Shown here: one piece after another, positions 11,584 to 64,000 of the stretch
How positions within the stretch are numbered: position 1 is the stretch's first letter
Layout of the letters: every line of letters begins with the position of its first letter
The notes under the pieces: generated by a model
Databases searched by the model: none
What the model saw: the letters and a program-made list of their open reading frames with translations, nothing else
What the model was told of the DNA's origin: nothing
Translations under genes and position numbers: made by a program
DNA from: an uncultured Phycisphaeraceae bacterium
Lineage (GTDB): Bacteria > Planctomycetota > B15-G4 > JADJEK01
DNA: 64,000 nucleotides
Reading direction: 5' to 3'
Assembly (NCBI GenBank): GCA_964649825.1
Contig: CAZYQW010000086.1
Location: 21,027 to 85,026 of the forward strand

Positions 11584-11810
11584 GGCTGGTTTCCTCTCGG
11601 TGGAGCCGGGGTCGTCCGATGCGCCGGATCGCCCCGACCAGAGACGGACGAATCGATCCCGCTGTTGGACGTCATCGCTTGGCGCCCCGGCCGGAGGCGT
11701 GGTACTCTTGGGCTCGTTCAGGGAAACGCCCGCCGGCCCGCGGCCCGCCCGACGCCGATCCGGTTCGGTGGAGACAACGCGGCTTCTCCCTCCGGGAAGT
11801 CCGAAGGACG

Positions 11811-12365
11811 ATGAGCATGAGCGATTCCGCGGCCACTCCCAGCGGTTCCACCGATCGTCAAGATCGAGTCAACGGAGCGGCAGGGCCTCGCCACGAGAGA
11901 CCATCCGATCGCCCCCTCCCGCCGTTCCGGACGTTCCTCTGCTCGGACTCCGAGATTCGCGAGCTCTTGCGCGATCATCGCTCGATCGCGATGGTCGGCC
12001 TCGACGACGACCCCGAGAACCCGTCCTATCAAGCCGCGCTCGAGCTGAAGCAGCGCGGGTATCGGGTTCTGCCCGTCCACCCCGATGGCAAGGTCGTGTT
12101 CGGCCTCCCGGCCGCGCCGAGCCTCGCCGCGATCCGCGAGAAGGTCGAGATCGTCGCCGTGCTGCCGCCGACCGACGCGGCCATGGCGCTCGCCGAGCAG
12201 GCGGCGTCGATCGGGGCGTTCGTCTTCTGGCTCGAGTCGGGTCTCGCCGACGCCCGGGCCGCGTATCAGGCGCATAAGAACGGTCTCGCCGTCGTGCTCG
12301 ATCGCAGCCTCCTCCGCGAGTACGAGATGCACTTCCCGGACGACGAGCTCGGTTATCCGGGTTGA
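11811..12365 (+). CDS. CoA-binding domain protein (YccU/CoA_binding_2-like).
   Basis: The ORF starts at ATG 11811 (MSMSD). It contains IAMVGLDDDPENPSYQAALELKQRGYRVLPVHP, a Rossmann-type CoA-binding fold. Confidence 0.65.
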   Translation: MSMSDSAATPSGSTDRQDRVNGAAGPRHERPSDRPLPPFRTFLCSDSEIRELLRDHRSIAMVGLDDDPENPSYQAALELKQRGYRVLPVHPDGKVVFGLPAAPSLAAIREKVEIVAVLPPTDAAMALAEQAASIGAFVFWLESGLADARAAYQAHKNGLAVVLDRSLLREYEMHFPDDELGYPG

Positions 12366-12384
12366 CGTCCGATCGACGTCCGGC

Positions 12385-31834: not shown

Positions 31835-32367
31835 CGCACGCCCTCGGCGCCGAGCTCGCGTCCGAGCCACGCCCGCGCAAAGCGCCAGTCGAGATCGACG
31901 GTGCGCGGCGAGACGCGAAGGACGGCCGCCGTCTCGTCGACCGAGAGCCCACCGAACCATTTCAGCTCCACGACTCGGGCCGCGCGCTCGTGCTCGCGAC
32001 CCAGCCGGTCCAGCGCCTCGTCGAGGGCGAGGAGGTCGGCAGTCGACGTCTCGCGCGCGCCGTCCGCCGCCACGAACTCGAGGCGAACGCGATCACCGCC
32101 TCGCTTGGCCGCACCGCGCCGCCTTGCATGGTCCACGAGAACCTCGCGCAGCGTGCGCGCGGCCAGAGCCAGGAAGTCGCCCCGCGCGACCCAAGCCGCT
32201 TCATTGCGCCCGAGCAGCTTCAGGAACGCCTCGTGCACGAGCGCGGTCGACTGTAGGGTATGTCCGGGCCGCTCGCGCGCGAGCGCCCGACTCGCGAGAC
32301 CACGCAAGCACTCGTAGACGATCGGCGTCCACCACCGGGCGTCGGAGCGAGTCGAATCGTGAGACAT
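31831..32367 (-). CDS. ECF sigma factor of the Ser/Thr-kinase-associated type (Sigma70_ECF/PF07638-like).
   Basis: The 178-aa ORF reads LVHEAFLKLL (region 2) and has a C-terminal region-4 helix-turn-helix (LSVDETAAVLRVSPRTVDLDWRFARAWL). It is translationally coupled to the kinase gene. Confidence 0.7.
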   Translation of the reverse strand: MSHDSTRSDARWWTPIVYECLRGLASRALARERPGHTLQSTALVHEAFLKLLGRNEAAWVARGDFLALAARTLREVLVDHARRRGAAKRGGDRVRLEFVAADGARETSTADLLALDEALDRLGREHERAARVVELKWFGGLSVDETAAVLRVSPRTVDLDWRFARAWLGRELGAEGVR

Positions 32368-35777: not shown

Positions 35778-38636
35778 TCACGGCGCGTCGAGCACGCCGA
35801 GGAGCCGCCGCGCGCCGCGATGGTCGGGGTCGACCCGGAGCACCTGCTCGACCAGGGTCCTCGCGTGGCGGAGGGCGCCGTCGGCGACGGCGTCCTCCGC
35901 CACCGCCGTCCACGCGTCCAGGTCGTCCGGGTGCTCGGTTCGCCAGCGCCACGTCGCCTCGCGGCGAAGCCCGTCCGCTGGACAGACGCCGCGCACGAAA
36001 CGGAACGTCAACGGGGTCGGCGACGACGCGCGCAAGAGCTGCGCGCACGCGGCGGCGAGTCCGCCGTCCTCGTCGGTCGCGAGCCCCGCGGCGTGGACCA
36101 GGCTAACGTGCGCCAACGGAAAGACCGAGTCGCGCTGGGCGGCCACGAGGAACTCGCGGGCCGCCGCGGCCCGATCGCCGCTCCGGCTGCGACACCACGC
36201 GCGCACGAACGCCATCGTTCCGTCCTCGTTGCTCGCGACGACGCGGTCCAGCGCCGACAGCATCGACTCCCGCGCCTTCCCGAGCAGAAGGACCGAGAGG
36301 GCCGCCGCGGTCGTGTCCCTCCAGTCCCGCGCCACCGACGGCGGAATCCGGAAGAGCGCCTCGGCGAGGCCGTCCTCCATGCCCGCGCTGGCGGTCGCGG
36401 CGAGCCCCGCGAGCGGCACGGCGAGGCGCATCACCGCGTCGAGCTTGGACGGCTCCTCGCCCAACACGCGATGCATCGCCTGCTCCTCGATCACCCGCGA
36501 AGCCTCGGTCACGTTCGCGAGCACGCCGAGCAACGCCCGCAGGATCCCGAGGGCGGACTCGCTCACCCGCGGGTAAGCGTCGACCAGCGCGGCGAGGTTG
36601 CTTCCCTCGACCACGGCCCGGCACCCGAGCTCCACGAACTGCGCCGACGGATCATCCGGGTACAACCGGCGATACTCCCGCGCCGCCTGGAGCGCGCGGG
36701 ACGGATGACCGGTCAACAGCAGCGTCGGCGCGAACATCTCGTTCGCGCGCCGATGACGGGAGTCGGCGGCGAGCGCTCGCTCGAGGTGGAGCCTCGCGGA
36801 CGCGGCGTCGCTCGCGAGCAGGGCGGCCGCGTACTCGGCGTCCGCCGCGTCCAGCCCGCCGCACGCGACGGCGTCCGCGACGAGCTCGAGGTGTCGCGGC
36901 TCGGCCGCGCGCTCCAGGTGCTCCCGCGTATGATCGCCGCGCAGGAGCAGCGTCTTCGCGAGATGGGGTCCGAGCTCGGCCGCCGAGAACCCGGCCAGCT
37001 CATCGATCGCGGCGCGCGCCCGCGCCAGCGCGCCCGCGCCTTCCCACGCCTCGATCTCGGACACGCGGATCCCGATCTCGTCGGCGCAGCCCCGGGCCCG
37101 CGCCTCCGCGTACCGCGCGTGCGCTTCCTCCCAGCGCCCGTAGAGCGCCGCGCGCAGCCCGAGGTTGAAGCTCTCCTCGGCGCTCTTCTGCGCCAGCTCG
37201 TCCCGCGACAGGACCGCGTCCTGCTCGCGAGCCCGCGCGACGTTTCGCTCGCCGCGGATGGCGAAGAGCGCGACGATGACGAGGCCGGTGATCAACGCCA
37301 TCGAGACCGCGGCCGAGACCGCGAGGGGCCGGTTCCGGACCATCCACTTCCGCAGCTCCGCCCACGGGCCCTCCTCGTAGGCGGCGACGACCCGTTGCTC
37401 GAGGAACGCGCGCAGGTCCTCGAGCAGACTGGTCATGCTCGGGTACCGATCGTCCACCCTCCACGCCATCGCCCGTTCGCAGACCGCCACCAGCTCCGCG
37501 GGCGCGTTGCCGGCCTTCGTCGCGAGCGGCGTCGGCGGGCCGCGCCGGGCCAACGCCAGCACGTCGGCCGCCGTCCGAGATTCGCCGCCGTCCAGGTAGG
37601 GCGCGTGGCCCGCGAGCAGCTCGTACAGGATGGCCCCGAACGCGTAGACGTCGGTGGCGGGGCCGATCCGATCGAGGTCGCCCGCGGCCTGTTCCGGCGC
37701 CATGTACGGGGCCGTCCCGACCGCTTCCCCCGGGTCGGTCCGGAGCGGCGAGCCGCGCTCCTCGACCAGAGCGTCGGCCCGCGTCGAGGTGACGCCGGAC
37801 GATGCCGAAGGCGAGCCGTCGGACACGAGCCGCGCGAGGCCCCAGTCCACGACGTACGTCTCTCCGAAGCGCCCGACCATGACGTTCTCCGGTTTGAGGT
37901 CGCGGTGGATCACGCCACGAGAGTGCGCGAACGCGAGCGATTCTCCGGCGCGTAGAAGGACGCCGAGCACCCGGGCTCGATTCCAGCCCTCGACGCCGCT
38001 CCTCGTCTTCGCGAGGACCGCGCGCAGGTCCTCGCCGGAGACGAGCTTCATCGCGTAGAAGACCCGGCCGTCGCGCGTGCCGACGTCGTGGACCGGGACG
38101 ATTCCGGGGTGGTCGAGCTGCGCCGTGACCTGCGCCTCCTCGAGGAATCGCCCGAGGCGGCGTCCGTGCTCGACGTCGCCGGGACGCCCCATCTCGTCGC
38201 TCATCATCTTCAACGCGACGGCGCGCCGGAGGTCGACGTCGAACGCGTGGTACACCTCGCCCATGCCGCCTCGTCCGAGGACCCCGTCGAGCACGTACCG
38301 GGGCTCGCCCGCCGCTCGCGAGCGGACCCGTTCCAGGAGGGCCGCCCACGTCGATGGGTCGCTCGGGTCGCCCTCGACGACCACTCGTCCGGGTTCCCCC
38401 CCGGCCGGCGCGGGCGAGGACGGCGACAGAGCGTCCCACACCAGCCCTTCGTACGCTCCCCAACCCGTCGCCAGCTCGCGGAGCGCCTCGGCATGCTCCG
38501 GGTAGCGGGAGGCCACCGACTCGATCGATCCTTGCTCGCCGCGTTCCCGCGCGGCCAGGTACTCGAGGAACGCGTCCTCGAGCGACGCCCCGTCCGGTCG
38601 ATCACCACCCGAGGCTTCATCCGCTGAAGAACGCAC
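35778..38636 (-). CDS. Ser/Thr protein kinase with a TM helix and a large C-terminal helical/TPR-like region.
   Basis: The kinase motifs read VALKMM, VIHRDLKPENVMV, DWGLAR and GTAPYMAPE. The TM segment reads LAVSAAVSMALITGLVIVALFAI. The start is uncertain. A GTG at 38636 is preferred over ATG 38732, because the interval contains 11-bp tandem repeats that are unlikely to be coding. Confidence 0.75.
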   Translation of the reverse strand: MRSSADEASGGDRPDGASLEDAFLEYLAARERGEQGSIESVASRYPEHAEALRELATGWGAYEGLVWDALSPSSPAPAGGEPGRVVVEGDPSDPSTWAALLERVRSRAAGEPRYVLDGVLGRGGMGEVYHAFDVDLRRAVALKMMSDEMGRPGDVEHGRRLGRFLEEAQVTAQLDHPGIVPVHDVGTRDGRVFYAMKLVSGEDLRAVLAKTRSGVEGWNRARVLGVLLRAGESLAFAHSRGVIHRDLKPENVMVGRFGETYVVDWGLARLVSDGSPSASSGVTSTRADALVEERGSPLRTDPGEAVGTAPYMAPEQAAGDLDRIGPATDVYAFGAILYELLAGHAPYLDGGESRTAADVLALARRGPPTPLATKAGNAPAELVAVCERAMAWRVDDRYPSMTSLLEDLRAFLEQRVVAAYEEGPWAELRKWMVRNRPLAVSAAVSMALITGLVIVALFAIRGERNVARAREQDAVLSRDELAQKSAEESFNLGLRAALYGRWEEAHARYAEARARGCADEIGIRVSEIEAWEGAGALARARAAIDELAGFSAAELGPHLAKTLLLRGDHTREHLERAAEPRHLELVADAVACGGLDAADAEYAAALLASDAASARLHLERALAADSRHRRANEMFAPTLLLTGHPSRALQAAREYRRLYPDDPSAQFVELGCRAVVEGSNLAALVDAYPRVSESALGILRALLGVLANVTEASRVIEEQAMHRVLGEEPSKLDAVMRLAVPLAGLAATASAGMEDGLAEALFRIPPSVARDWRDTTAAALSVLLLGKARESMLSALDRVVASNEDGTMAFVRAWCRSRSGDRAAAAREFLVAAQRDSVFPLAHVSLVHAAGLATDEDGGLAAACAQLLRASSPTPLTFRFVRGVCPADGLRREATWRWRTEHPDDLDAWTAVAEDAVADGALRHARTLVEQVLRVDPDHRGARRLLGVLDAP

Positions 38637-38649
38637 GGGACCTCCTCCT

Positions 38650-38681
38650 CCGCTCGAGTTTCCGCTCGAGTTCCGCTCGGC
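38650..38681. repeat. Tandem 11-bp direct repeat (CCGCTCGAGTT x2 plus a partial copy) in the divergent region between the kinase and ECF sigma genes.
   Basis: The sequence was read directly as tCCGCTCGAGTTtCCGCTCGAGTTCCGCTCGG. The unit length is not a multiple of 3. Confidence 0.4.
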
Positions 38682-38872
38682 GTGCCGCCGCGAGCGACCG
38701 ACCCTCCGCCGAGAAACTCTGGCAGAATCCACGTCCGGTGCGCCGCGCCGCCACGTTCATTGGGGGCAGGACGCGTCCGACGGCTTCGAGACCGCGGAAA
38801 GGAGCGCGCGTGCCCGGCCAGGATCCTACCCCTTCACCCGCCGAGCGGCATGAAACCCCTTCTCGCGACCGC

Positions 38873-39511
38873 ATGGAGACCGACGAGTTCCTCGGTCTCT
38901 TCCAGCGCGCGAAAGAGGGCGACCTCGACGCCTTCGAGCGGATCTTCGAGCGGTGCTACAACACGGTCCTCGCGATCGTTCGCCGCCGGCTGGGGGCGCG
39001 GATGCGCGAGGTCGTCGAGTCCGGCGACGTGCTCAACGACGTCATGGTGCGGGCGATCCAGAACTTCTCCGGCTTCGACGTCGGCAACCGGACCGAGCTG
39101 CTCGCGCTCTTCGTGCACATGGTCAAACAGGGGATCACGGACGCCGCCCGCTACCACGGGGCGCAGAAGCGAGACCGCGACCGCGTGCGCGCGCTCCGGC
39201 ACGTCACCGAGTCGATCGCCAGCGGCCGCCTCGTCCTCGAGCCGGCCGCGGACGCGCCCGCCATCCTCGACCACCTCTCGCGCGAAGAGGAGAAGGAGAT
39301 CGCGAAGCAGTGCCTCGCCGAGCTCGACCCGACCGACCGGGCCGCGATCGAGTCCCGCACGATCCACGCGGACGCGAGCTGGGACGAGATGGCCGCGCTC
39401 CTCGGTGCGCCGAGCGCGGACGCCGCCCGTCATCGAGTCCAACGCGCCATGATCGCGCTGAAGAAGCGCTACGACCGAGCGAGGGGCGGCGATCGTCCTT
39501 CGGATTCTTGA
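38873..39511 (+). CDS. ECF sigma factor, Ser/Thr-kinase-associated type (second copy).
   Basis: The ORF starts METDEFLGLFQRAKEGDLDAFERIFERCYNTVLAIVRRRL and has a C-terminal region 4 (LDPTDRAAIESRTIHADASWDEMAALLG). It is divergent from the kinase at 35778. Confidence 0.7.
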   Translation: METDEFLGLFQRAKEGDLDAFERIFERCYNTVLAIVRRRLGARMREVVESGDVLNDVMVRAIQNFSGFDVGNRTELLALFVHMVKQGITDAARYHGAQKRDRDRVRALRHVTESIASGRLVLEPAADAPAILDHLSREEEKEIAKQCLAELDPTDRAAIESRTIHADASWDEMAALLGAPSADAARHRVQRAMIALKKRYDRARGGDRPSDS

Positions 39512-53424: not shown

Positions 53425-55215
53425 TCACGCGACCGTGTCGGCTTCCTCGATCGGCACGTTCATCTGCCGGAAGATCTCCCGCGTGCGCGATCCGAGGAAC
53501 GCCCGCACTTCTCCCGTCGTGGAGAACGACATCACCCGCCGCGCGGCCGCCTCCGCCTCCTTCAGCGTGACGGCGCGGATCAGCCGGCCGACGCCGGTCA
53601 CGTAGTGCCGCGCCATCGAGAAGCGGCGCAGACCCAGCCCGAGCAGCACCAACGTGCAGTAGAAGCTTCCCGCCATCTCGCCGCAGAGCGATACCGGCTT
53701 GTTCACCGCCCGGGCCGCATCGATGACCATCTGCAGCGCCCGCAGCACGCTCGGATTCAGCGGCTGCGAGAGGTTGGCGACGCGAGCGTTGTTGCGGTCG
53801 ACCGCGAGCAGGTACTGGATCAGGTCGTTCGAGCCGATCGAGATGAAGTCCACCTCGCGCAGGATCGTCTCGACGGCCAGCACGGCGGCCGGCACCTCGA
53901 TCATCGCCCCGAGCGGCACGTTCTCCGCGGCGGGGATCGCGCGACGCCGCAGGTCCTTCTTCACGTCGTCGACGAGCGCCGAAGCGCGACGGACCTCGTC
54001 GACGGTGGTGATCATCGGCAGCATGATCCGCACGTTGCCGTGCGCCGACGCGCGCAGCAGCGCGCGAACCTGCGCGATGAAGAGGTCCGGCCATTCGTCG
54101 CTGATTCGGTAGCCGCGCCAGCCGAGCGCGGGGTTGTCCTCGTCCGACACGCGGAAGTACGGGAGACGCTTGTCGCCGCCGATGTCGATCGTCCGGAACA
54201 CCACCTCGCGCGGCGCGGCCCGCTCGGCCACCTTGCGGTAGACCTCGAACTGCTCGTCCTCGGAGGGGAACGACGCGCGGTCCATGTAGACGAACTCGGT
54301 CCGGTAGAGGCCGATCCCGGCGAGGTCGCCGAGGTCGTCCGGCATGACGTCGCCCGCGTTCTCGACGTTGACGAAGATCTCGACCTCGGTGCCGTCCTTC
54401 GTCACGGCGGGGAGCGCGGGCCCGGCCTCGAGGGCCTCGCGCATGCGATCGAGGAGCGCGGCGCGACTCCGGTAGCGTGCGAGCGTCTCGTCGGTCGGGG
54501 CGACGACGATCGTCCCCTCGCGACCATCCACGATCGTGCGCTGGCCGCCGTGCTCGACGAGCCGCTTCACGTCGCGCACGCCGGTGACGGCCGGAATACC
54601 GAGGGCCCGCGCGAGGATCGCGGCGTGCGACGCCTTGCCCCCCGTCTCCGTGATGATTCCGGCGAGACGGCGCCGGTCGAGACGAGCCGCGTCGGACGGA
54701 AACAGCTCCTTCGTCACGAGGATGTACGGGCTGTCGGGGGTGGCGGCGATCTCGTCGGCGCCCCGGCTCAGGTTCTGGAGGATCCGACGCCCTACGTCAC
54801 GGACGTCGGTGGCGCGGTCGCGCGCGAGGGGGTCCTCGAGCCGCGCGAACGCCGCGCTGTAGCGCCGCACGAGCGCCGACACCGCGGCCTCCGCGTTGAT
54901 CCCCTCGTCCCGCACCGCCTTCTCGATCTGCTCCTCGAAACCGGGGTCCTCGAGGATCTGCAAGTGGACGAGGAAGATCCGCGCGTCGTGCTCGCCGACC
55001 TTCTTGATCGCCTCCTCGCGGGTCCGCGCGAGGTCGCTCCGGGCGAGAGCCAGCGCCGTCTTCAGCCGCCTCAGCTCGCCGGGGATGGCGGCGGGCAGCA
55101 CGCAGTACGCCGGCGCGTCGAGGGGGAACGACTCGGCTACGGCGAAGACGGGGCCGATCCCGATCCCGTGCGAGACCGGAATGCCACGGATGATCTTCTC
55201 GCCGCCGCCCGCCAT
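53425..55215 (-). CDS. ptsI: Phosphoenolpyruvate-protein phosphotransferase (PTS Enzyme I).
   Basis: The phospho-His region reads GGKASHAAILARALGIPAVTG. The PEP-utilising motifs read GLYRTEF and SIGSNDLIQY. Confidence 0.85.
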   Translation of the reverse strand: MAGGGEKIIRGIPVSHGIGIGPVFAVAESFPLDAPAYCVLPAAIPGELRRLKTALALARSDLARTREEAIKKVGEHDARIFLVHLQILEDPGFEEQIEKAVRDEGINAEAAVSALVRRYSAAFARLEDPLARDRATDVRDVGRRILQNLSRGADEIAATPDSPYILVTKELFPSDAARLDRRRLAGIITETGGKASHAAILARALGIPAVTGVRDVKRLVEHGGQRTIVDGREGTIVVAPTDETLARYRSRAALLDRMREALEAGPALPAVTKDGTEVEIFVNVENAGDVMPDDLGDLAGIGLYRTEFVYMDRASFPSEDEQFEVYRKVAERAAPREVVFRTIDIGGDKRLPYFRVSDEDNPALGWRGYRISDEWPDLFIAQVRALLRASAHGNVRIMLPMITTVDEVRRASALVDDVKKDLRRRAIPAAENVPLGAMIEVPAAVLAVETILREVDFISIGSNDLIQYLLAVDRNNARVANLSQPLNPSVLRALQMVIDAARAVNKPVSLCGEMAGSFYCTLVLLGLGLRRFSMARHYVTGVGRLIRAVTLKEAEAAARRVMSFSTTGEVRAFLGSRTREIFRQMNVPIEEADTVA

Positions 55216-55224
55216 CGCTTCGCC

Positions 55225-56562
55225 TCAGGAGAGTCGGGTCAGCAGGAGGTCGGACAACCCGTCCAGGTTGACCCGCTCCTGCGCCATCGAATCGCGGTCG
55301 CGCAGCGTCACGCTGTTCGTCGCCGCGGTCTCGCCGTCTATCGTCACGCAGAACGGCGTGCCGATCTCGTCCTGGCGGCGGTACCGCCGACCGACCGCGC
55401 CCGACTCGTCGTAGAAAACGGTGAAGCGACGCCGCAGGTCCTCCTCGATCTGCCGCGCCCGCTCCGGCATCCCGTCCTTCTTGACGAGCGGGAAGACCGC
55501 GACCTTCATCGGCGCGAGCCGAGGGTGCAGGTGGAGGACGGTGCGCGCGTCCTTCTCGAGCTCCTCCTCCTCGTAGGCGTCGACGAGGAACGCGAGCGTC
55601 GCGCGATCGACGCCGGCCGCCGGCTCGATCACGTACGGGTGGTAGTGCGTCTTCGTCTGGTCGTCGAAGAACTTCATGTCGCGGCCCGAGTGCTCCTCGT
55701 GCTGCTTCAGGTCGAAGTCGGTGCGCGACGCGATCCCCTCGAGCTCGCTCCAACCGAACGGGAACTCGTACTCGACGTCGACGCACGCGTTCGCGTAATG
55801 CGCGAGCTCGTTCTGCTCGTGGTCGCGGATTCGCAGCTTCTCCTTCTTGATGCCGAGGTCGACGTACCACTGGAAGCGCTGGTCGCGCCAGTACTCGTAC
55901 CACTTCCTCCACTCGTCGGGCGGCGCGAAGTACTCCATCTCCATCTGCTCGAACTCGCGCGTGCGGAAGATGAAGTTGCCCGGCGTGATCTCGTTGCGGA
56001 ACGACTTTCCGATCTGCGCGATCCCGAACGGCGGCTTGACCCGCGAGCTGTTCAGCACGTTCGCGAAGTTGATGAAGATCCCCTGCGCGGTCTCGGGACG
56101 CAGGTAGCAGACCGCCGCCGAGTCCTCGACCGGGCCCATGTGGGTCTTGAACATCAAGTTGAACTGACGCGCCTCGGTGAAGTGCCCCGCCTCCTGGCAC
56201 TTCCGCGCGGCGCGGCCCTTGTACGCCTTGTTCGCGCACATCGCGTCGTCGAGGTGGTCCTCGCGAAAGCGGGCCTTGCACTCGCGGCAGTCGACGAGCG
56301 GGTCCGAGAACCCCGACACGTGCCCCGACGCGTTCCAGACCTGGGGGTGCTGCAGGATCGCCGAGTCGAGCCCGACGACGTCGGAGCGACGCTGGACCAT
56401 CGCGGTCCACCAGGCATCCTTCACGTTCCGCTTCAACTCGACCCCGAGCGGCCCATAGTCCCAACAGGACGCCTGCCCGCCGTAGATCTCGCTCGCCGGA
56501 AACACGAAACCGCGGCGCTTGCACAGCGAGACGATCTTGTCCATGACGTCCGGAGCGGGCAT
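55225..56562 (-). CDS. glyQS: Glycine--tRNA ligase (alpha2 dimeric type).
   Basis: An AGGAGAAC site precedes ATG 56562. The ORF reads MPAPDVMDKIVSLCKRRGFVFPASEIYGG. The class II motifs read FRNEITPGNFIFRTREFEQME and GVDR. GC content is lower here. Confidence 0.9.
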   Translation of the reverse strand: MPAPDVMDKIVSLCKRRGFVFPASEIYGGQASCWDYGPLGVELKRNVKDAWWTAMVQRRSDVVGLDSAILQHPQVWNASGHVSGFSDPLVDCRECKARFREDHLDDAMCANKAYKGRAARKCQEAGHFTEARQFNLMFKTHMGPVEDSAAVCYLRPETAQGIFINFANVLNSSRVKPPFGIAQIGKSFRNEITPGNFIFRTREFEQMEMEYFAPPDEWRKWYEYWRDQRFQWYVDLGIKKEKLRIRDHEQNELAHYANACVDVEYEFPFGWSELEGIASRTDFDLKQHEEHSGRDMKFFDDQTKTHYHPYVIEPAAGVDRATLAFLVDAYEEEELEKDARTVLHLHPRLAPMKVAVFPLVKKDGMPERARQIEEDLRRRFTVFYDESGAVGRRYRRQDEIGTPFCVTIDGETAATNSVTLRDRDSMAQERVNLDGLSDLLLTRLS

Positions 56563-56787
56563 CCGCGTTCTCCTGATGAAGGGTGATGAGGCGATGAAAG
56601 GATGATGAACGACGATGAGGGATGAAATCCAGCCCATGATTCAACGGTTCCGCGGTCGCAAAGCAAGCATCGCGGGCCGAGACGCACACGGACGCCGAGG
56701 CGTCCCCGTGCGCCGCACCGCTTCGACGCATTCCTGATCGCTCCGTTGGTTCGTACGATGTCCCGATTCGAACGCCGGAGGACGACC

Positions 56788-58425
56788 ATGCTCGCACGAT
56801 CGATCGGTCTCGTCACGCTCGCCGGGCTCGGCGCGTGCGGAACGCTTGGAATCGGAGGAATGAACGACATCGACGCTCGCCTGGCCAAGTTCGCCCCCGT
56901 GCGCATCCAGGCCGACCTGTCCGATCTCCCCGCGTCGGAGCGGGAAGCGCTCGACCACCTCGTCGCGGCGGCCAAGCTGATGGAGCCGATCTTCCTCCGG
57001 CAGGCGTGGCACGAGAACCCGCGGCACGCGGAGACTCTCGACGGCCCGGCGCGCGAGCTGTTCTTCATCCACGCTGGTATCTGGGACCGCATCGACGAGG
57101 AGCCGTTCGTCGGATCGACGCCGCGGCCCGAGGTCGCCGGCTTCTACCCCGCCGACCTCACGCGCGAGGAGTTCGATGCGTACGTCGCGGCGCACCCGGA
57201 GCAAAAGGAGGCGCTGGAGAGCCTGTTCACGATCGTCGTGCGCGACGGCACGGGACTCCGCGCGATCCCCTACTCCGAGGCATTCGCCGAGTGGCTCGTG
57301 CCGGCCGCAGAGCACCTACGAGCCGCCGCGCGCGTCACCCGGAACGAGTCGCTGCGCCGCTTCGCCGACAGCCGCGCCGCCGCGTTCCTGTCCGACGACT
57401 ACTACCAGAGCGACGTGGACTGGATGGACCTCGACGGACTGGTCGAGATCACGATCGGGCCGTACGAGACGTACGAGGACCGTCTGTTCGGCTACAAGGC
57501 CGCGTTCGAGGCGTTCGTGACCGTGGCCGACAAGACGGAGAGCGCGCGGCTCGAGCTCTACAAGTCCGAGCTGCCGATGATGGAGCAGAACCTCCCGATC
57601 CCGGACTCGATGAAGAACCTGGATCGCGGCAGCGAGTCGCCGATCCGCGTGGTCGACGTCTACTACGCGTCGGGCGACACGCGCGCCGGCGTGCAGACGA
57701 TCGCGTTCAACCTGCCGAACGACGAGCGCGTGCGCGAGGCGAAGGGGAGCAAGAAGGTGCTCCTGCAGAACGTGATCGAGGCGAAGTACGGCGGGATCCT
57801 GCAGCCGATCGCCGTTGCGATGCTCGTGCCCGAGCAAATCGATCTCGTGACCGCGGACGCGTTCACGAACCAGACGCTCTTCCACGAGCTGTCGCACGGG
57901 CTCGGTCCAGGACGGATCGTGAAGGACGGCCGCGAGACCGAGGTGCGCCTCGAGCTGAAGGACCTCTATTCGCCGCTCGAGGAAGCGAAGGCCGACATCA
58001 TGGGCGTCTACAACCAGCTCCTGATGGTGGAGAAGGGCCTGATGCCCGCCTCGACCACGGAGACCCTCTACCCGACGTGGCTCGCCGGCCTGTTCCGCTC
58101 GATCCGTTTCGGCGTGGAGGAGGCGCACGGCAAGGCGAACATGATCCAGTTCAACTACATGCAGGACCACGGCGCGATCGCGCGCGACCCCACGACCGGC
58201 CGCTACCGGGTCGACTTCGACAAGTTCGCCGACGAGACGAGGAACCTGGTCCGCGACATCTGCGTGCTCCAGGCGAACGGCGACTACGACGGTACGCTCG
58301 AGTTCCTCCTCGAGTACGGCGAGATGGGCGACGAGCTGATGCGCGACCTGACGCGGCTCGAAGGGATTCCGGTCGACGTCCGCCCGATCTACGACCCCGA
58401 CGAGGCGATGGCCGGGCACGGATGA
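56788..58425 (+). CDS. DPP III-like (M49-related) zinc metallopeptidase lipoprotein with an HExxH-variant motif.
   Basis: A GGAGGA site precedes ATG 56788. The lipobox reads MLARSIGLVTLAGLGAC. The zinc motifs read TLFHELSHGLGP and EEAKADIMG, which resemble the M49 HExxGH/EECRAE pair. Confidence 0.6.
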   Translation: MLARSIGLVTLAGLGACGTLGIGGMNDIDARLAKFAPVRIQADLSDLPASEREALDHLVAAAKLMEPIFLRQAWHENPRHAETLDGPARELFFIHAGIWDRIDEEPFVGSTPRPEVAGFYPADLTREEFDAYVAAHPEQKEALESLFTIVVRDGTGLRAIPYSEAFAEWLVPAAEHLRAAARVTRNESLRRFADSRAAAFLSDDYYQSDVDWMDLDGLVEITIGPYETYEDRLFGYKAAFEAFVTVADKTESARLELYKSELPMMEQNLPIPDSMKNLDRGSESPIRVVDVYYASGDTRAGVQTIAFNLPNDERVREAKGSKKVLLQNVIEAKYGGILQPIAVAMLVPEQIDLVTADAFTNQTLFHELSHGLGPGRIVKDGRETEVRLELKDLYSPLEEAKADIMGVYNQLLMVEKGLMPASTTETLYPTWLAGLFRSIRFGVEEAHGKANMIQFNYMQDHGAIARDPTTGRYRVDFDKFADETRNLVRDICVLQANGDYDGTLEFLLEYGEMGDELMRDLTRLEGIPVDVRPIYDPDEAMAGHG

Positions 58426-59021
58426 CCGGCGGCGCGGGCCAGGATGACGTCGCGCGCGCGGTCGGCGGCGACGAGGCGGCGCTCTCGCGGCTGCTGCTGC
58501 GGCACGCCGTTCGGATCCGTCGCTCCATCACGATCGTCCTGCCTCCTCGGCTTCGCGCGCTCCTGTCCGAAGACGACGTCCTGCAGCAGACGTTCACCGA
58601 CGCGTTCCTCGACGTCGACCGGTTCACCGGCGCCGGCGAGGAGGCGTTCGCGGCCTGGCTCGCGCGCCTCGCTCGGAACAACCTGCAGGACGCGATCCGC
58701 GCGCTCGACGCCGTGAAGCGCGGCGGCAAGGAGGCGCCCCGCGCCGACGATGCGAATTCGTTCGAGACGTTGTTCGTGAACCTGCTCGCGCGTACTCGCA
58801 CCACGCCGAGCGGACACGCGGTGCGCGAGGAGATGATCGCGTCGATGCGGGACGCGATCGATCGCCTTCCCGCCGATCACGCTCGCGTCGTCCGGCTCTA
58901 CGACCTGGAATCGCGCCCGATCGCCGAGGTCGCGGCCGCCCTCGGACGGAGCGAGGGCGCGACGTTCCTGCTGCGCCACCGCGCGCATCGCCGGCTGCGG
59001 GACATGCTCGGGGGAGGGTGA
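58422..59021 (+). CDS. ECF sigma factor, Ser/Thr-kinase-associated type (third copy).
   Basis: The ATG overlaps the peptidase stop (ATGA). The ORF reads AVGGDEAALSRLLLRHAVRIRR, has a region 4 (LYDLESRPIAEVAAALGRSEGATFLL), and is similar to the two other ECF sigma copies in the window. Confidence 0.7.
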   Translation: MTGGAGQDDVARAVGGDEAALSRLLLRHAVRIRRSITIVLPPRLRALLSEDDVLQQTFTDAFLDVDRFTGAGEEAFAAWLARLARNNLQDAIRALDAVKRGGKEAPRADDANSFETLFVNLLARTRTTPSGHAVREEMIASMRDAIDRLPADHARVVRLYDLESRPIAEVAAALGRSEGATFLLRHRAHRRLRDMLGGG

Positions 59022-59073
59022 CGGCGCCGACGCGCTCACGACCGCGCGGCGGGACCGGACCTCGTCGTCGCGG

Positions 59074-60864
59074 CTACGGGATCGTGATCCGCACGCCGTT
59101 CGTGTTCGAGAAGCCGAGCGGGATCGCGCCGGCGTCGATGATGAACGCCTGCATCGCCACCGAGACCGACAGGTTCAGCGCGACCGGGATCGCGCCCGGG
59201 ATCGACACCGCGCCGTTTCCGGCGCCGCTGCCGCCGAAGGTCAGCCCGATCGGGCCGGGGAGGAACGGGAACACGTTCGCCACGCAGCCGAACCCGATCT
59301 CGACCGACGCCGGCTGGAGCCCGAGGAAGAGGAGCCCCGTCGCGCCGCCGACCGCGTTCGTGACCGAGAGCGTCACCACCGATCCCTTGGTCGTGCAGCC
59401 GTCCAGGTCGAGCACCGGCACGAACCCGCCGGAGCCGACGCAGCCCGTTCCATAGGAAACCGTCTGGCTGCACTGGCGCTCGTGCGCCCCCATGTCGACG
59501 ACCGGCGCGATGCCGACGCCCGTGTCCGCCGCGTTCACCTCGTCGGAGAAGCGCGGCTGACCGCCCCCGTCGGTCGGCGTCGGCTCGAGCTGGTTCGCGT
59601 CGCCGTCGAGATCGAGCGCGTCCGCGGGAACCGCCGTCCCGTCGCCCGCGTCGACGCACGGCGAGAGCAGGCCCAGGCGCAGGTCGTCGTCGCCGGTCCC
59701 CACCACGTCGTCCGCGCCGTCCGCGTCGAGGAAGAGCGGGTCGAGCCCGACGTTCGTTCCGCCGAGCGCGCCGGTGAGCCCCTGGATGCAGGAGCGGTCG
59801 ACGACGCTCGGCTCCGGGCCGAGCTGGATCTGCGCCGCCTCGCTCAGGACGCCGGACGTCGAGTTCCCCCACAGGATCGAGTTGGTGAGCTGCGTCGCCA
59901 CCCGGAGGAACACGTTGTCCGCGAGCAGGCCGCCCGCCTTCGCGGTCGACACGTTGCCGGCGAAGGTGCAGAGCGCGACGGACAGCGCGACGGGCGCCGT
60001 GAACGAGTCGCCGATGACGTACGCGCCGCCGCCGCCGTCGACCGCGGAGTTGCCGCTGAACCGGCAGTTCACGAGGGTGGCGTCGCCGACCGCGCAGAGC
60101 CCGCCGCCGAGGCCGGTCGAGTGGTTGCCGGCGAACGAGCAGCCCGCGAGGGTGACGTCGCCCGCGTAGAGACCGCCGCCAAGCGCGCCGCCGGCGCTCG
60201 CCCCGGCCCGGTTCTGCTCGAACGCGCAGTAGATCAACGCCGGCGTGCCGGCGCCGACGGCCGCCATGCCGCCTCCGATCGCGCCGAACCCGTCGCCGAC
60301 GAGGTTGTCGCGCACGCGGCAGTTGCGAAGCACGGGGCTCGACGAGACCGAACGAACCCCCGCCCCTTCGTTCGGCGCGGCGTCGTCGTGCCCGCCGCGG
60401 ATCGAGAACCCGTCGAGGGTCGTGGCGCTTCCCGCCGCGCTGAACGTCACCACGTTCAGGCTGTTGTCGCCGCGGTTCGCGAACGCGGGCCCGTCGTCGC
60501 CGGAGAGGTCGCCGGACAGGATCGTCTGATCGAACAGCCCGGCGCGCTGCGCGAGCGTCGCCTCGACGCCGGAGAAGCCGCCGAAGACGGCGACGCCGTC
60601 CGGGATGAGGAACGTCGCGGAACGATCGAGCGGAGTCCGACCGCCGCCGGCGTCCGGCCGATAGGTCCCCGCCGCGACCCACACTTCGTCGCCCGCCGCC
60701 ACCACGGAGAGCGCGTCCTGCAGCGCGGTGAACGCGTCGGTCCACGACGTCCCGTCGTTCGCCCCCATCGCGGAGTCGTCGACGAAGTGGGTCGCGGCGC
60801 CGACCGCGCCGGTCGCGAGGCTGAGGACGAGGACGGCGAGGACGCACGAGCGCCGGTGTCGCAT
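59074..60864 (-). CDS. Secreted right-handed parallel beta-helix repeat protein with a C-terminal module shared with the FG-GAP protein.
   Basis: The ORF starts at ATG 60864. The signal peptide reads MRHRRSCVLAVLVLSLATGAVGAA. Repeated segments such as NxxxGGGxxxxGxxxLxxCxFxGN are typical of pectate-lyase-like beta-helices. The C-terminus reads GTGCVGSGGFVPVLDLDGC... Confidence 0.65.
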   Translation of the reverse strand: MRHRRSCVLAVLVLSLATGAVGAATHFVDDSAMGANDGTSWTDAFTALQDALSVVAAGDEVWVAAGTYRPDAGGGRTPLDRSATFLIPDGVAVFGGFSGVEATLAQRAGLFDQTILSGDLSGDDGPAFANRGDNSLNVVTFSAAGSATTLDGFSIRGGHDDAAPNEGAGVRSVSSSPVLRNCRVRDNLVGDGFGAIGGGMAAVGAGTPALIYCAFEQNRAGASAGGALGGGLYAGDVTLAGCSFAGNHSTGLGGGLCAVGDATLVNCRFSGNSAVDGGGGAYVIGDSFTAPVALSVALCTFAGNVSTAKAGGLLADNVFLRVATQLTNSILWGNSTSGVLSEAAQIQLGPEPSVVDRSCIQGLTGALGGTNVGLDPLFLDADGADDVVGTGDDDLRLGLLSPCVDAGDGTAVPADALDLDGDANQLEPTPTDGGGQPRFSDEVNAADTGVGIAPVVDMGAHERQCSQTVSYGTGCVGSGGFVPVLDLDGCTTKGSVVTLSVTNAVGGATGLLFLGLQPASVEIGFGCVANVFPFLPGPIGLTFGGSGAGNGAVSIPGAIPVALNLSVSVAMQAFIIDAGAIPLGFSNTNGVRITIP

Positions 60865-61175
60865 CGGGGGCTCCAGTTGGGTTCCAGGCTTCAGCTTCTT
60901 CGCGTGCCGCGAAGAACTTGAAGCATATCCACCCGACACGTGACCGCGTCCTCAGGCGCACACGTGGCGTGTGCTTCCTCGGTTGCGGTCCTACCGCGTT
61001 GGGTCGATCGGGGTCGAGTCGATGATGGGCTCGGAAGAGTAACTCATGGGTCGCGCGGCGGACAGACGTCGCCTGCGGATCGCGCCTTCGGCCGCCGCGG
61101 CCCCGGCGGCGCGAAAAAGGACGAGATCCGCGTAAGCGCCCCGGCCCGACTACGCTTCTCCGATCGGAACGACCC

Positions 61176-64000
61176 ATGAAGCTGCCCCACGACGCCTCCG
61201 ACTCGGGATCCCGCGACGCCGACCTGATCCGCGCCGCGCAGGACGACGCCCGGGCGCTGCGAGGGGCGGGGAACGAACGCCGGGCTCCGATCGGCGCGAT
61301 CCGCTTCCCCGGGTACGTCGTCGAGGCGGAGATCCACCGCGGCGGCCAGGGCGTCGTCTTCCGTGCCCGCCAGGAGGGCACCGGACGGCCGGTCGCGATC
61401 AAGCTGCTCCACGGCGGGCCGTTCGCGGGCGACCGCGAGCGGGTCCGGTTCGAGCGCGAGGCGCAGATCCTGGCGCGCCTCAAGCATCCGAACATCGTCG
61501 CGATCCACCACACCGGGCAGTCGGGCGAGGCCGGAGGCGGCGCCTACTTCGTGATGGACCACGTGGACGGCCGGCACCTCGACCGGTACGTGGAGGAGAC
61601 CCGGCTCGCCCCGCGCGCCGTCGTCGTGCTGTTCGAGAAGATCTGCGACGCGGTCCACGCCGCGCACCTCCACGGAGTCATCCACCGCGACTTGAAGCCG
61701 AGCAACATCCGCGTCGACGCGCGCGGCGAGCCGCACGTGCTCGACTTCGGCCTGGCGAAGAGCACGAGCGCCCTGCCGGACCGAACGCCGCCCGTGACCG
61801 ACCCGGGACAGTTCATCGGCTCGCTGCCGTTCGCGAGCCCCGAGCAGGCGGCCGGCGACGGCGGCGCGGTCGACCTGCGGACCGACGTGTACGCGATCGG
61901 CGTGATGCTCTACGTCTGCCTGACCGGCGCGCATCCGTACGACGTCTCCGGGCCGTTGAAGCGCTCCCTCGACAACATCCTGAACGCCGCGCCGGCGCCG
62001 CCGGCGCGACTTCGCCCCGACGTCGACGACGACGTGGCGAGCATCGTGCTCCGCTGTCTCGAGAAGGACCCGCGCCGCCGATACCAGGGCGCCGGCGAGG
62101 TCGCGCGCGACCTCCGCCGCTTCCTCGACGGCGAACCGGTGGACGCGAAACGCGACCGCGCCTTGTACGTCATCTCACGGACGCTGTCCCGCTACCGCAT
62201 GCAGGTCGGCCTCGCCCTCGGGTTCGTCGGAGTGATCGCGGCCGGACTGGTGACGGCGCTCCTCCTTTGGAGCGTCGCGGCGCGCGAACGCGACGCCGCG
62301 TACGAGGCGGGGCTCGCCGCCGACGCGGCTCGCGCCGCGGCCGAGCGCAAGCAGCAGGACCTCGCGCGCCAGCTCTACTTCCACCGGCTGCTCGCGGCGC
62401 AGGTCGCGCTCGACGACGGAAACGTCGCGCGCGTGCGCGAGCTCCTCGATGAAAGCCCGGCCGAGCTCCGCGGCTGGGAGTGGCGGCACCTGGCGTGGAT
62501 GGCCGACCGCTCGGCGCGCACGTTCGTGGCCGGCCGTCCGTTGCTCTGCGTCGACGTGTCGCCGGGAAACGATCGGATCGCGGCCGGCGACGCCGACGGC
62601 GCCCTCCACGTATGGAACGCGATGAGCGGCGCGGTCCTCGACGCACGGCCGCGCCACGACGGCGCGATCCACGGAGTTCGATTCGGTCCCGGCGAGCTCG
62701 TCGCCACCGCCGGCGAGGACGGCGTGGTCCGAGTGACGGACGCGGTCCGCGACGTCACGCTCCCCGGCGCCGGGAGCGAGGTGCGCTGCGTGACGTTCAC
62801 GAACGACGGCGGCGTCGTCGCCGGCGACGACGGCGGCCGCGGCTTCCGGTGGGACGTCGCGACGTCGCGCGAGCTCGCGCGCCGCGAGCTCGGGGGCTCG
62901 ATCCTATCGATCGTCTCTCATGCGATGACGAACGAGGTGCTCGCCGCTGGACGGGACGGCGCGGTGTTCGCGCTCGACGCGGCCACGCTGGAGGTCCGCC
63001 GCGAGGTCGCGCGGCTCGACGCGGGCGTCACGAGCCTCGCGCTCCACGAATCCTCCGGCACCCTCGCGGCCGGCATGGTCAACGGCACGGCCGCGATCAT
63101 CGATCTCCCGAGCGGAGCCGAACGCGGCCGCGTCCGCGCGCACGGCGAGTGGGTGCACGCGGTGTCGTTGAGCGCGGATGGGCTCTTCCTCCTGACCGCC
63201 GGCGCCGACCACACGGTGATGGCGTGGAACGTACGCACGCTGGATCGCGACCGGACGTACCGCGGTCCCACCGACCGCGTCTTCGGCGTCCGCTTCCTCG
63301 CCGACGGCAGGAGCGTCGTCTGCGCGTCTCTCGACGGCACGGTCCGCCTCTTCGACCGCGACGCCGCCGATCGCGCGCGGGTGTTCCAGAGCCACGATGG
63401 ACAGGTCTGGTGCGCCGACTTCGTCGACGCCGGACGCACGTTCGTCGCGGGCGGATCGGACGGTCGACTGCGGCGGTTCGACACGCGCGACGTCACCGGC
63501 GTGCCGCTCGCCCGGCGCGCCCACGACGGGGCCGTGACCTCGCTGGTCGTCGATCGGGCCGAAGAGGTCGTCGTCGCGGCGGGCGCCGACGGACGGGTCA
63601 AGCGCTTCCGCCTCCCCGAGCTGCGGCCGGACGGCGAGCTCTTCGCCGGCGGAGCGTGGATCCACGCGCTCGCGCTGTCGCCGGACGGCGGCACGGTGGC
63701 CGTCGCCTCGCACGACTCGACGGTGCACCTGGTCGCGGCTCGCGACGACGGCGCGCCTCCGCGCCTCCTGGCCACGCTCGAGCGCCGGCCGTACGCGATC
63801 GGGTTCGCCCGCGGCGGCCAGGAGATCGTGGTCGGCGACGCGGCGGGACGGCTCGTTCGCCTCGACGCGAGCCGCGGTGTCACGCGGTCGATCGATCCCG
63901 TCCACGACGGCGTCATCTGGTCGCTCGCGGTCGCCCCCGACGGCGCCACCGTGGCGACCGCATCGGCCGACGGCACGGCGACGATCATCTCGCTCGACGA
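61176..64000 (+). CDS. Ser/Thr protein kinase fused to a TM helix and a WD40 beta-propeller. It is partial and continues past the window end.
   Basis: The kinase motifs read VAIKLLH, VIHRDLKPSNIRV, DFGLAK and GSLPFASPEQ. The TM segment reads VGLALGFVGVIAAGLVTALLLW. Multiple WD-like repeats follow (DGxxxVWN, DxxVRLFD and similar). It is absent from the ORF track because no stop codon is reached. Confidence 0.8.
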   Translation, partial: MKLPHDASDSGSRDADLIRAAQDDARALRGAGNERRAPIGAIRFPGYVVEAEIHRGGQGVVFRARQEGTGRPVAIKLLHGGPFAGDRERVRFEREAQILARLKHPNIVAIHHTGQSGEAGGGAYFVMDHVDGRHLDRYVEETRLAPRAVVVLFEKICDAVHAAHLHGVIHRDLKPSNIRVDARGEPHVLDFGLAKSTSALPDRTPPVTDPGQFIGSLPFASPEQAAGDGGAVDLRTDVYAIGVMLYVCLTGAHPYDVSGPLKRSLDNILNAAPAPPARLRPDVDDDVASIVLRCLEKDPRRRYQGAGEVARDLRRFLDGEPVDAKRDRALYVISRTLSRYRMQVGLALGFVGVIAAGLVTALLLWSVAARERDAAYEAGLAADAARAAAERKQQDLARQLYFHRLLAAQVALDDGNVARVRELLDESPAELRGWEWRHLAWMADRSARTFVAGRPLLCVDVSPGNDRIAAGDADGALHVWNAMSGAVLDARPRHDGAIHGVRFGPGELVATAGEDGVVRVTDAVRDVTLPGAGSEVRCVTFTNDGGVVAGDDGGRGFRWDVATSRELARRELGGSILSIVSHAMTNEVLAAGRDGAVFALDAATLEVRREVARLDAGVTSLALHESSGTLAAGMVNGTAAIIDLPSGAERGRVRAHGEWVHAVSLSADGLFLLTAGADHTVMAWNVRTLDRDRTYRGPTDRVFGVRFLADGRSVVCASLDGTVRLFDRDAADRARVFQSHDGQVWCADFVDAGRTFVAGGSDGRLRRFDTRDVTGVPLARRAHDGAVTSLVVDRAEEVVVAAGADGRVKRFRLPELRPDGELFAGGAWIHALALSPDGGTVAVASHDSTVHLVAARDDGAPPRLLATLERRPYAIGFARGGQEIVVGDAAGRLVRLDASRGVTRSIDPVHDGVIWSLAVAPDGATVATASADGTATIISLD

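What the first reader, a model, noticed from the sequence alone, without database searches (positions are those of the whole stretch)
56788..64000. Third ECF sigma is stop/start coupled to an M49-like HExxH peptidase and lies near a kinase-WD40 gene
The sigma gene start (58422) overlaps the stop of a lipoprotein zinc peptidase. That peptidase resembles DPP III (M49) but carries HELSH rather than HELLGH. Coupling of an ECF sigma to a periplasmic peptidase gene is unusual. Two kb away, across a convergent beta-helix protein gene, a kinase fused to a WD40 propeller begins (61176) and runs off the window. Together these may form a dispersed ECF-STK module in which the peptidase has a regulatory or processing role.
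Basis: partly seen in the sequence, partly recalled or inferred. Interest (0 to 1): 0.5.

Follow-up and report, generated by a model that had tools for sequence, protein, structure and literature searches.

The report
Kinase-controlled sigma gene behind ordinary peptidase
The sigma factor gene does overlap the end of a peptidase gene, but the peptidase is an already characterised short bacterial DPP III, and the sigma most likely answers to the nearby membrane kinase, so this is an unusual gene order, not a new regulatory system.

Summary
All stated coordinates and features hold up. The peptidase (56788-58425) has a lipoprotein-type signal, HELSH and a second zinc motif EEAKAD. It matches the solved Caldithrix abyssi DPP III (HEISH, 6EOM) at E=7e-163, so the pentapeptide variant is already known.

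The sigma (58422-59021) overlaps the peptidase stop by 4 nt (ATGA). In all seven homologue contexts where the next gene could be identified, a Ser/Thr kinase gene with WD40 or TPR repeats follows directly. No anti-sigma gene is present.

The window's kinase (61176 onward, 1030 aa in full) falls in the kinase group that partners this sigma family. Its kinase domain is 45-49% identical to partner kinases and 30-38% to other kinases. The dispersed sigma-kinase module is therefore supported.

A regulatory role for the peptidase is not supported. Of 160 DPP III loci scanned, 145 have at least 700 nt after the gene, and only two close relatives (L003, L093) carry the sigma there. A sister genome (L002) keeps ptsI-glyS-peptidase without sigma or kinase.

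Most likely the sigma is made by read-through from the peptidase promoter and switched on by phosphorylation.

Verdict: new member of a known kind; interest is low to moderate.

The parts
56638..56787 (+). Intergenic region between divergent glyS and the peptidase gene. It holds a -10-like TACGAT at 56754-56759.
   Evidence: Relatives L093, L003 and L002 carry TAGGAT at the matching place, including L002, which has no sigma. The consensus sigma-70 scan found no promoter here. This is a weak inference only.
56788..58425 (+). Lipoprotein-type DPP III (M49), short bacterial HEXXH subgroup, 545 aa
   Evidence: PF03571 at 57.6 bits against a cut-off of 21. Matches 6EOM at E=7e-163 over residues 27-540 and 5ZUM at E=2e-125. 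The same 545-aa protein is in the source's gene calls.
56827..56838 (+). Lipobox LGAC, with Cys17 as the predicted lipidated residue
   Evidence: Read from the sequence. A lipobox Cys is also present in L093 (TPSC), L003 (FASC) and L002 (ATSC). CaDPP III has a signal peptide at 1-18 followed by Cys19 (PMC5805324).
57883..57897 (+). First zinc motif HELSH (pentapeptide form of HEXXGH)
   Evidence: Aligns with HEISH of 6EOM and HELMH of 5ZUM.
57979..57996 (+). Second zinc motif EEAKAD (the EEXK/RAE/D motif of M49)
   Evidence: Aligns with EECKAD of 6EOM.
58422..58425 (+). ATGA overlap of the sigma start and the peptidase stop
   Evidence: L003 has GTGA at the same junction. L093 has no gap but also no canonical in-frame start.
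58422..59021 (+). ECF sigma factor, 199 aa, of a kinase-associated planctomycetal family
   Evidence: Pfam r2 and r4 hit. Best NCBIfam model is TIGR02984 at 108 bits, below its 183.75 cut-off. Homologues are followed by kinase genes.
58566..58577 (+). Region 2.2 motif SEDD, at the position of the canonical DAED
   Evidence: The family column pattern is [S/D]-x-D-D. Acidic residues are kept, unlike the ECF43 motif STTA (PMC8999054).
58794..58811 (+). Ser/Thr cluster TRTTPS in the sigma2-sigma4 linker, a candidate phospho-acceptor
   Evidence: Family motif T-x-[ST]-T-P-S-R. S/T at residue 128 in 68/72 sequences, P at 129 in 69/72, S/T at 130 in 71/72. The analogy is to the linker phosphosites of EcfK (PMC13147305).
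59074..60864 (-). Secreted beta-helix protein, 596 aa, convergent with the sigma and divergent from the kinase. It interrupts the usual sigma-kinase adjacency.
   Evidence: Weak Pfam Beta_helix, Chlam_PMP and DUF1565 hits. The N-terminus MRHRRSCVLAVLVLSLATGAVGA looks like a signal peptide. It is not conserved at this position in L003 or L173.
60865..61175 (.). 311-nt divergent intergenic region, so the kinase operon has its own promoter region
   Evidence: No consensus promoter was found.
61176..64000 (+). Membrane Ser/Thr kinase with an extracytoplasmic WD40 region (first 941 of 1030 aa), the probable cognate kinase of the sigma
   Evidence: Pkinase at 131.6 bits, plus WD40. VAIK 61392-61403, HRDLKPSN 61683-61706, DFG 61743-61751, transmembrane helix 62205-62282. 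The full protein is P0123. L175 overlaps the window end at 99.95% identity; there the gene ends 268 nt past the window and an exported esterase-like gene follows 5 nt later.

Best explanation
This is a Ser/Thr-kinase-controlled ECF sigma module whose sigma gene has become separated from its kinase gene. The sigma gene now sits as the second gene of a two-gene operon behind an ordinary exported DPP III lipoprotein gene.

Proposed working:
- The peptidase promoter gives steady transcription, and the 4-nt ATGA overlap couples translation of the sigma to that of the peptidase (inferred).
- The sigma has no anti-sigma partner. Its activity is set after translation by the membrane kinase encoded 2.15 kb downstream (inferred).
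- That kinase senses something outside the cytoplasm through its WD40 region and phosphorylates the sigma. The conserved TRTTPS cluster in the sigma2-sigma4 linker or Ser49 of the SEDD motif are the likely sites. Phosphorylation would change binding to RNA polymerase (inferred by analogy with EcfP/PknT and EcfK/PknS).
- The peptidase itself is a peptide-trimming enzyme with no role in the signalling.

Shown here: the gene anatomy, the family memberships, the kinase adjacency in homologues, and the narrow distribution of the peptidase-sigma junction.
For: 1. The peptidase is a full-length close homologue of two solved and assayed HEXXH DPP III enzymes (PMC5805324 and PMC9820243).

2. Sigma homologues P0002, P0005, P0010, P0018 and P0028, and the sigma in L174, are each followed directly by a kinase-WD40 or kinase-TPR gene on the same strand. 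No anti-sigma-like ORF follows the window sigma; only 52 nt separate it from a convergent gene.

3. The window kinase domain is 45-49% identical to those partner kinases. It is 30-38% identical to non-partner kinases, including the two others in the window. Its second-closest homologue, P0125, sits directly after a sigma that is 51% identical to the window sigma.

4. An exported 270-280-aa esterase-like gene follows the kinase in the window's organism (L175), and in L173, L174 and L089. This ties the window kinase to the same conserved module.

5. The peptidase-sigma junction occurs only in L003 and L093 among 160 DPP III loci. L002 keeps ptsI-glyS-peptidase without sigma or kinase.

6. A TAGGAT/TACGAT element upstream of the peptidase gene is present whether or not the sigma is there.

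7. The linker motif T-x-[ST]-T-P-S-R is nearly invariant in the sigma family.
Against: - The zero-gap junction is kept in three lineages whose peptidases are only 65-70% identical. Co-expression may therefore be selected, and a functional link cannot be excluded.
- The sigma-kinase pairing rests on correlation. The genome has many kinases and ECF sigmas, three of each within this window's 64 kb.
- L003 shows no kinase within 5.4 kb after its sigma.
- Monophyly of the three peptidase-linked sigmas is unresolved. Bootstrap support is 87/200, against 102/200 for a rival placement of P0010.
- Cotranscription is not shown. The consensus scan found no promoter or terminator of note.
- Region 2.2 keeps three acidic residues (SEDD), so the ECF43 logic of being inactive until phosphorylated need not apply.
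Confidence: 0.6

Rival explanations
1. The peptidase is a working part of the circuit. Either it is the main output of the sigma (a positively autoregulated peptidase-sigma operon), or it makes or destroys a periplasmic peptide cue that the kinase's WD40 region reads.
For: The tight junction is conserved in three lineages. The peptidase, the kinase sensor region and the esterase-like protein are all predicted to lie outside the cytoplasm.
Against: No sigma lies next to the gene in over 140 other DPP III loci. L002 keeps the peptidase and its upstream element without the sigma. In homologues the module is sigma-kinase with no peptidase. DPP III acts on short peptides and is not a site-1-type protease (PMC5805324).
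Confidence: 0.15
2. The sigma and the nearby kinase are not partners. The sigma is an orphan, controlled by another kinase elsewhere in the genome or only at the level of transcription, and the kinase's proximity is chance in a kinase-rich genome.
For: An opposite-strand gene and a 311-nt promoter region separate the two genes. The window alone holds three kinases. L003 has no kinase within 5.4 kb of its sigma.
Against: The window kinase belongs to the partner-kinase group of this sigma family and carries the module's downstream esterase-like gene. L003's contig (29,231 bp) appears to hold an orthologue of that esterase-like gene: P0245 is listed on a contig of the same length. L003's large minus-strand gene is 51% identical to the gene that sits just before the kinase in L173.
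Confidence: 0.17
3. The overlap is an annotation artefact, and the sigma really starts elsewhere.
For: L093 has no canonical start codon in the sigma frame at the junction.
Against: There is no other in-frame start near 58422. The 199-aa length fits homologues of 200-210 aa, and the alignment covers region 2.1 from residue 10 or so. An independent gene call gives the same protein. L003 has GTGA at the same place.
Confidence: 0.03

Closest known systems
Caldithrix abyssi DPP III (PDB 6EOM) and Corallococcus DPP III (PDB 5ZUM): the roughly 550-aa bacterial M49 subgroup with a pentapeptide HEXXH
   Same: Full-length homology (E=7e-163 and 2e-125). The pentapeptide zinc motif (HELSH against HEISH and HELMH). 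The second motif (EEAKAD against EECKAD). The size. An N-terminal signal peptide followed by Cys.
   Different: The host is a mesophile-like, high-GC Planctomycetota genome. Here the gene's stop overlaps an ECF sigma gene, which is not seen in Caldithrix-type loci (L004-L013). Activity was not assayed.
Kinase-associated ECF sigma groups: ECF43 (EcfP/PknT, EcfK/PknS) and the planctomycetal groups ECF59-62 and ECF217
   Same: An ECF sigma with no anti-sigma gene. The family is consistently encoded next to a Hanks-type kinase with repeat sensor domains. It has conserved Ser/Thr positions in region 2.2 or the linker (PMC7826278, PMC8999054, PMC13147305).
   Different: The sigma is not adjacent to its kinase. 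A convergent gene lies between them, and the sigma is operonic with a peptidase gene. Region 2.2 keeps acidic residues (SEDD), unlike ECF43. The exact ECF group was not assigned, and TIGR02984 scores below its cut-off.
The canonical ECF-kinase pair in the same window (sigma 31831-32367, kinase-TPR 28886-31960, minus strand)
   Same: The same two-component logic, in the same genome.
   Different: It belongs to a different ECF group: PF07638 at 4e-46, and the finding's sigma detects no similarity to it by tblastn. Its two genes are adjacent or overlapping, which is the usual arrangement.

Membership tests
Peptidase family M49 (DPP III), HEXXH subgroup | First zinc-binding motif HEXXGH or HEXXH | tested here: met
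   HELSH at residues 366-370, aligned to HEISH of 6EOM.
Peptidase family M49 (DPP III), HEXXH subgroup | Second zinc motif EEX(K/R)A(E/D) | tested here: met
   EEAKAD at residues 398-403, aligned to EECKAD of 6EOM.
Peptidase family M49 (DPP III), HEXXH subgroup | Family profile above the curated cut-off, and full-length homology to a solved member | tested here: met
   PF03571 at 57.6 bits against 21. 6EOM at E=7e-163, residues 27-540 against 31-553.
Peptidase family M49 (DPP III), HEXXH subgroup | [quoted passage not shown] | not testable with these tools
   Needs an enzyme assay, for example with Arg-Arg-2-naphthylamide.
ECF (group 4) sigma-70 factors | Only sigma2 and sigma4 domains, about 200 aa | tested here: met
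   Sigma70_r2, r4 and r4_2 hit with no r3 or r1.2; 199 aa; TIGR02937 at 57.2 bits against 42.9.
Kinase-associated ECF sigma factors (general) | A Hanks-type Ser/Thr kinase gene conserved in the neighbourhood | tested here: met
   Directly adjacent in all 7 homologue contexts where the next gene could be identified. In the window it lies 2.15 kb away across one gene and belongs to the partner-kinase group.
Kinase-associated ECF sigma factors (general) | No co-encoded anti-sigma factor | tested here: met
   52 nt separate the sigma stop from a convergent 596-aa secreted protein gene. No small membrane ORF is present.
Kinase-associated ECF sigma factors (general) | The sigma is phosphorylated by the kinase | not testable with these tools
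   Needs a kinase assay or phosphoproteomics. The candidate sites TRTTPS and Ser49 are inferred only.
ECF43 specifically | Region 2.2 lacks the acidic DAED residues (for example STTA) | tested here: not met
   The window has SEDD and the family pattern is [S/D]-x-D-D. It is therefore not filed as ECF43.
NCBIfam TIGR02984 (Planctomycetaceae sigma-70 subfamily 1) | Score above the curated cut-off | tested here: not met
   108 bits against a cut-off of 183.75. This is the best-matching model, but the sigma is not a member by the curated rule.
Hanks-type Ser/Thr kinases | Catalytic motifs: the VAIK lysine, HRDLKxxN, DFG and APE-like | tested here: met
   VAIK at 73-76, HRDLKPSN at 170-177, DFG at 190-192, SPE at 221-223; Pkinase at 131.6 bits.

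The most novel reading that the evidence does not exclude
The exported DPP III lipoprotein shapes a periplasmic peptide signal that the kinase's WD40 region senses. The kinase then phosphorylates the sigma, and the peptidase-sigma operon closes a feedback loop. That would make this a peptide-processing input to a kinase-controlled ECF sigma, a type of coupling not described so far.
Probability: 0.06. Interest if true: 0.6.

Novelty: new member of a known kind. Interest (0 to 1): 0.25.

Why it matters
It adds a natural case in which a kinase-controlled ECF sigma is expressed from a foreign, housekeeping-type operon and encoded apart from its kinase. This fits the view that such sigmas are regulated after translation and need no autoregulated promoter.

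It also points to a nearly invariant T-x-[ST]-T-P-S-R linker motif as a testable phospho-acceptor in a planctomycetal sigma family that has not been studied experimentally.

The peptidase itself adds nothing new beyond another member of the HEXXH DPP III subgroup.

Tried and rejected
- Rfam scan of 55000-64000 at E<=0.1 found nothing.
- The consensus promoter and terminator scan of 56500-61400 found no promoter, and only one weak terminator-like site inside glyS.
- The repeat search found only GC-rich chance repeats and the internal repeats of the beta-helix gene. There are no mobile-element ends around the sigma or the beta-helix gene.
- The search for a shared ECF-type promoter upstream of sigma homologues gave only varied TAnnnT-like elements and no common -35/-10 pair. 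Alignment of the four regions upstream of the peptidase gene showed no element specific to the sigma-bearing genomes.
- I rejected the idea that the beta-helix gene belongs to the module. It has no homologue at this position in L003 or L173, where a YfhO-like membrane protein gene lies instead.
- I rejected the idea that the whole sigma-to-kinase block lies between the peptidase and mqn genes in this genome. L175 shows GDSL-lipase and PMT genes after the esterase-like gene, not mqnE/mqnC.
- Looking up the full kinase P0123 by exact sequence found nothing on record. The downstream sequence came from L175 instead.
- Bootstrapping did not resolve whether the window sigma is sister to the L003 and L093 sigmas.

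Full report
**Observation**

The window is about 70% G+C. The genes around the finding are:
- ptsI, 53425-55215 (-)
- glyS, 55225-56637 (-)
- a 545-aa peptidase, 56788-58425 (+)
- a 199-aa sigma factor, 58422-59021 (+)
- a 596-aa secreted beta-helix protein, 59074-60864 (-)
- a kinase-WD40 gene from 61176 (+) that runs off the window

The peptidase stop (TGA, 58423-58425) and the sigma start (ATG, 58422-58424) overlap as ATGA. The source assembly's own gene calls contain exactly these proteins, including a 1030-aa kinase that starts at 61176.

**The peptidase**

It passes the Pfam M49 threshold (57.6 bits against 21). It aligns over its whole length with two solved bacterial DPP III enzymes: Caldithrix abyssi (6EOM, E=7e-163) and Corallococcus (5ZUM, E=2e-125). 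HELSH (57883-57897) aligns with HEISH and HELMH. The second zinc motif EEAKAD (57979-57996) aligns with EECKAD.

The published work on these enzymes describes a large subgroup of roughly 550-aa bacterial M49 proteins with a pentapeptide HEXXH. It shows that they have DPP III activity (PMC5805324, PMC9820243). The variant is therefore real but already known.

The N-terminus has a lipobox (LGAC, Cys17). Close relatives have one too, and the Caldithrix protein has a predicted signal peptide at 1-18 followed by Cys19. An exported lipoprotein is the likely form, but this could not be checked with a dedicated predictor.

**The sigma factor**

It has sigma2 and sigma4 domains only. Its best NCBIfam model is the planctomycetal TIGR02984, at 108 bits and below that model's cut-off. 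The closest database relatives are 45-55% identical and come mostly from Phycisphaerae-type assemblies.

I looked at the genomic context of P0002, P0003, P0005, P0006, P0010, P0018 and P0028, and of the sigma in L174.
- P0002 (seen at two places), P0005, P0010, P0018, P0028 and the L174 sigma are each followed on the same strand by a Ser/Thr kinase gene with WD40 or TPR repeats.
- At P0003 and P0006 the contig is too short to identify the next gene.
- No anti-sigma gene appears in any of these contexts.

This is the signature of the kinase-associated ECF groups: ECF43, ECF59-62, ECF217 and others (PMC7826278). For the ECF43 members EcfP and EcfK, direct phosphorylation by the neighbouring kinase has been shown (PMC8999054, PMC13147305).

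The window sigma is not of the ECF43 type. At the DAED position of region 2.2 it has SEDD, and the family pattern is [S/D]-x-D-D. The family does have a nearly invariant Ser/Thr cluster in the sigma2-sigma4 linker, T-x-[ST]-T-P-S-R, which reads TRTTPS in the window (58794-58811). EcfK is phosphorylated in its linker, so this cluster is a reasonable candidate acceptor. That is inference only.

**Is the nearby kinase the partner?**

The window holds three kinase genes.
- The kinase domain of the one at 61176 is 45-49% identical to kinases that sit directly after homologues of this sigma. It is 30-38% identical to other kinases, including the two others in the window.
- Its second-closest database homologue, P0125, is directly preceded by a sigma 51% identical to the window sigma.
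- A Logan contig from the same sample (L175) overlaps the window end at 99.95% identity. It shows that the kinase ends 268 nt past the window and is followed after 5 nt by an exported 279-aa esterase-like gene.
- The same esterase-like gene follows the kinase in L173, L174 and L089.

The window kinase therefore carries the hallmarks of this module. It has all catalytic motifs, one transmembrane helix (residues 344-369) and a long WD40 region that would lie outside the cytoplasm.

I conclude that the sigma and this kinase are probably cognate. They are separated here by a convergent beta-helix gene and a 311-nt promoter region.

**How conserved is the peptidase-sigma junction?**

I scanned 80 DPP III loci from species-representative genomes and 80 from metagenomes with a profile of the sigma family. 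Of these, 145 have at least 700 nt after the peptidase gene.
- Only L003 (peptidase 70% identical; GTGA overlap) and L093 (65% identical; no gap) have a sigma at the peptidase stop.
- Both also keep glyS upstream.
- L002, with a peptidase equally 70% identical and the ptsI-glyS-peptidase order intact, goes straight on to mqnE/mqnC-like radical-SAM genes. It has neither sigma nor kinase.
- L003 and L093 sigmas are firmly sister (200/200 bootstraps). Whether the window sigma joins them ahead of the kinase-linked P0010 is unresolved (87/200 against 102/200).

In L003, a large YfhO-like gene on the minus strand follows the sigma. Its homologue in L173 (51% identical) lies just before the closest homologue of the window kinase. 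An orthologue of the esterase-like gene is also listed on a contig of the same length as L003's. A split sigma ... kinase layout may therefore be shared by this small lineage, with different genes in the gap. This last point is stitched from different assemblies and is not proven.

**Mechanism**

The best reading has four parts.
- The peptidase gene is an ordinary peptide-scavenging gene with its own promoter region. A TAGGAT/TACGAT element there is shared by relatives with and without the sigma.
- The sigma gene landed behind it in one lineage and is made by read-through and translational coupling.
- Activity of the sigma is set by the WD40 kinase through phosphorylation.
- Upstream regions of the sigma genes in this family show no shared ECF-type promoter. 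That fits sigmas that are controlled after translation.

None of the transcription or phosphorylation steps could be tested here.

**Rivals**

A functional role for the peptidase, as an output or as a signal processor, stays possible because the junction is conserved in three lineages. The distribution data argue against it. Chance proximity of the kinase is made unlikely by the partner-group and esterase-gene evidence. A mis-called start is unlikely.

**Verdict**

- The module idea is supported.
- The peptidase variant is already known.
- The proposed regulatory role of the peptidase is unsupported.

This is a new member, with an unusual gene order, of the known class of kinase-associated ECF sigma systems.

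Noticed in passing
window 28886-32367 (-): A canonical ECF-kinase pair. An ECF sigma (PF07638, E=4e-46) at 31831-32367 is directly followed, or overlapped, by a kinase-TPR gene at 28886-31960. It is a different ECF group from the finding's sigma (no tblastn cross-hit).
   Followed up: partly
window 35778-39511: A third kinase gene (35778-38732, minus strand) has about 600 C-terminal residues with no Pfam domain. It is divergent from an ECF-like ORF in the distal half of 38354-39511 (+), with PF07638 at E=1e-8.
   Followed up: no
window 59077-59479 (-) and 33782-34177 (+): The C-terminal 130 or so residues of the beta-helix protein are 42% identical to the C-terminus of an FG-GAP repeat protein encoded next to the other ECF-kinase pair. 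The shared domain has no Pfam or NCBIfam match. It may be a common anchoring or export domain of proteins controlled by these sigmas.
   Followed up: no
L175 2391-3230 (just past the window end; also L173 5274-6086, L174 11122-11949, L089 about 11163-12608): An exported 270-280-aa alpha/beta-hydrolase ('predicted esterase / dienelactone hydrolase') gene follows the WD40 kinase, 5 nt after its stop in the window's organism. It recurs after the closest kinase homologues and may be a third conserved component of the module.
   Followed up: partly
sigma family alignment; window 58794-58811: A nearly invariant linker motif T-x-[ST]-T-P-S-R in the 72 aligned family members: S/T at position 128 in 68/72, P in 69/72, S/T at position 130 in 71/72. 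I found no description of it in the papers read.
   Followed up: partly
L093 3145-3275: The sigma reading frame after the peptidase stop has no ATG, GTG or TTG before residue 36 of the alignment. An ATT overlaps the TGA, and a TTG lies in another frame. This could be a non-canonical start or a frameshift error in the metagenome contig.
   Followed up: no
L002 5279-8222 and L173 6223-10368: The menaquinone (futalosine-pathway) genes mqnE/mqnC are 72-74% identical between the two loci. They follow the peptidase directly in L002, but follow kinase-esterase in L173. In the window's organism they are not at this place. This indicates local rearrangement around the module among relatives.
   Followed up: partly
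window 1088-2335 (-): A larger sigma-70 family gene with regions 1.2, 2, 3 and 4. It is a primary-like or group 2/3 sigma, not an ECF.
   Followed up: no
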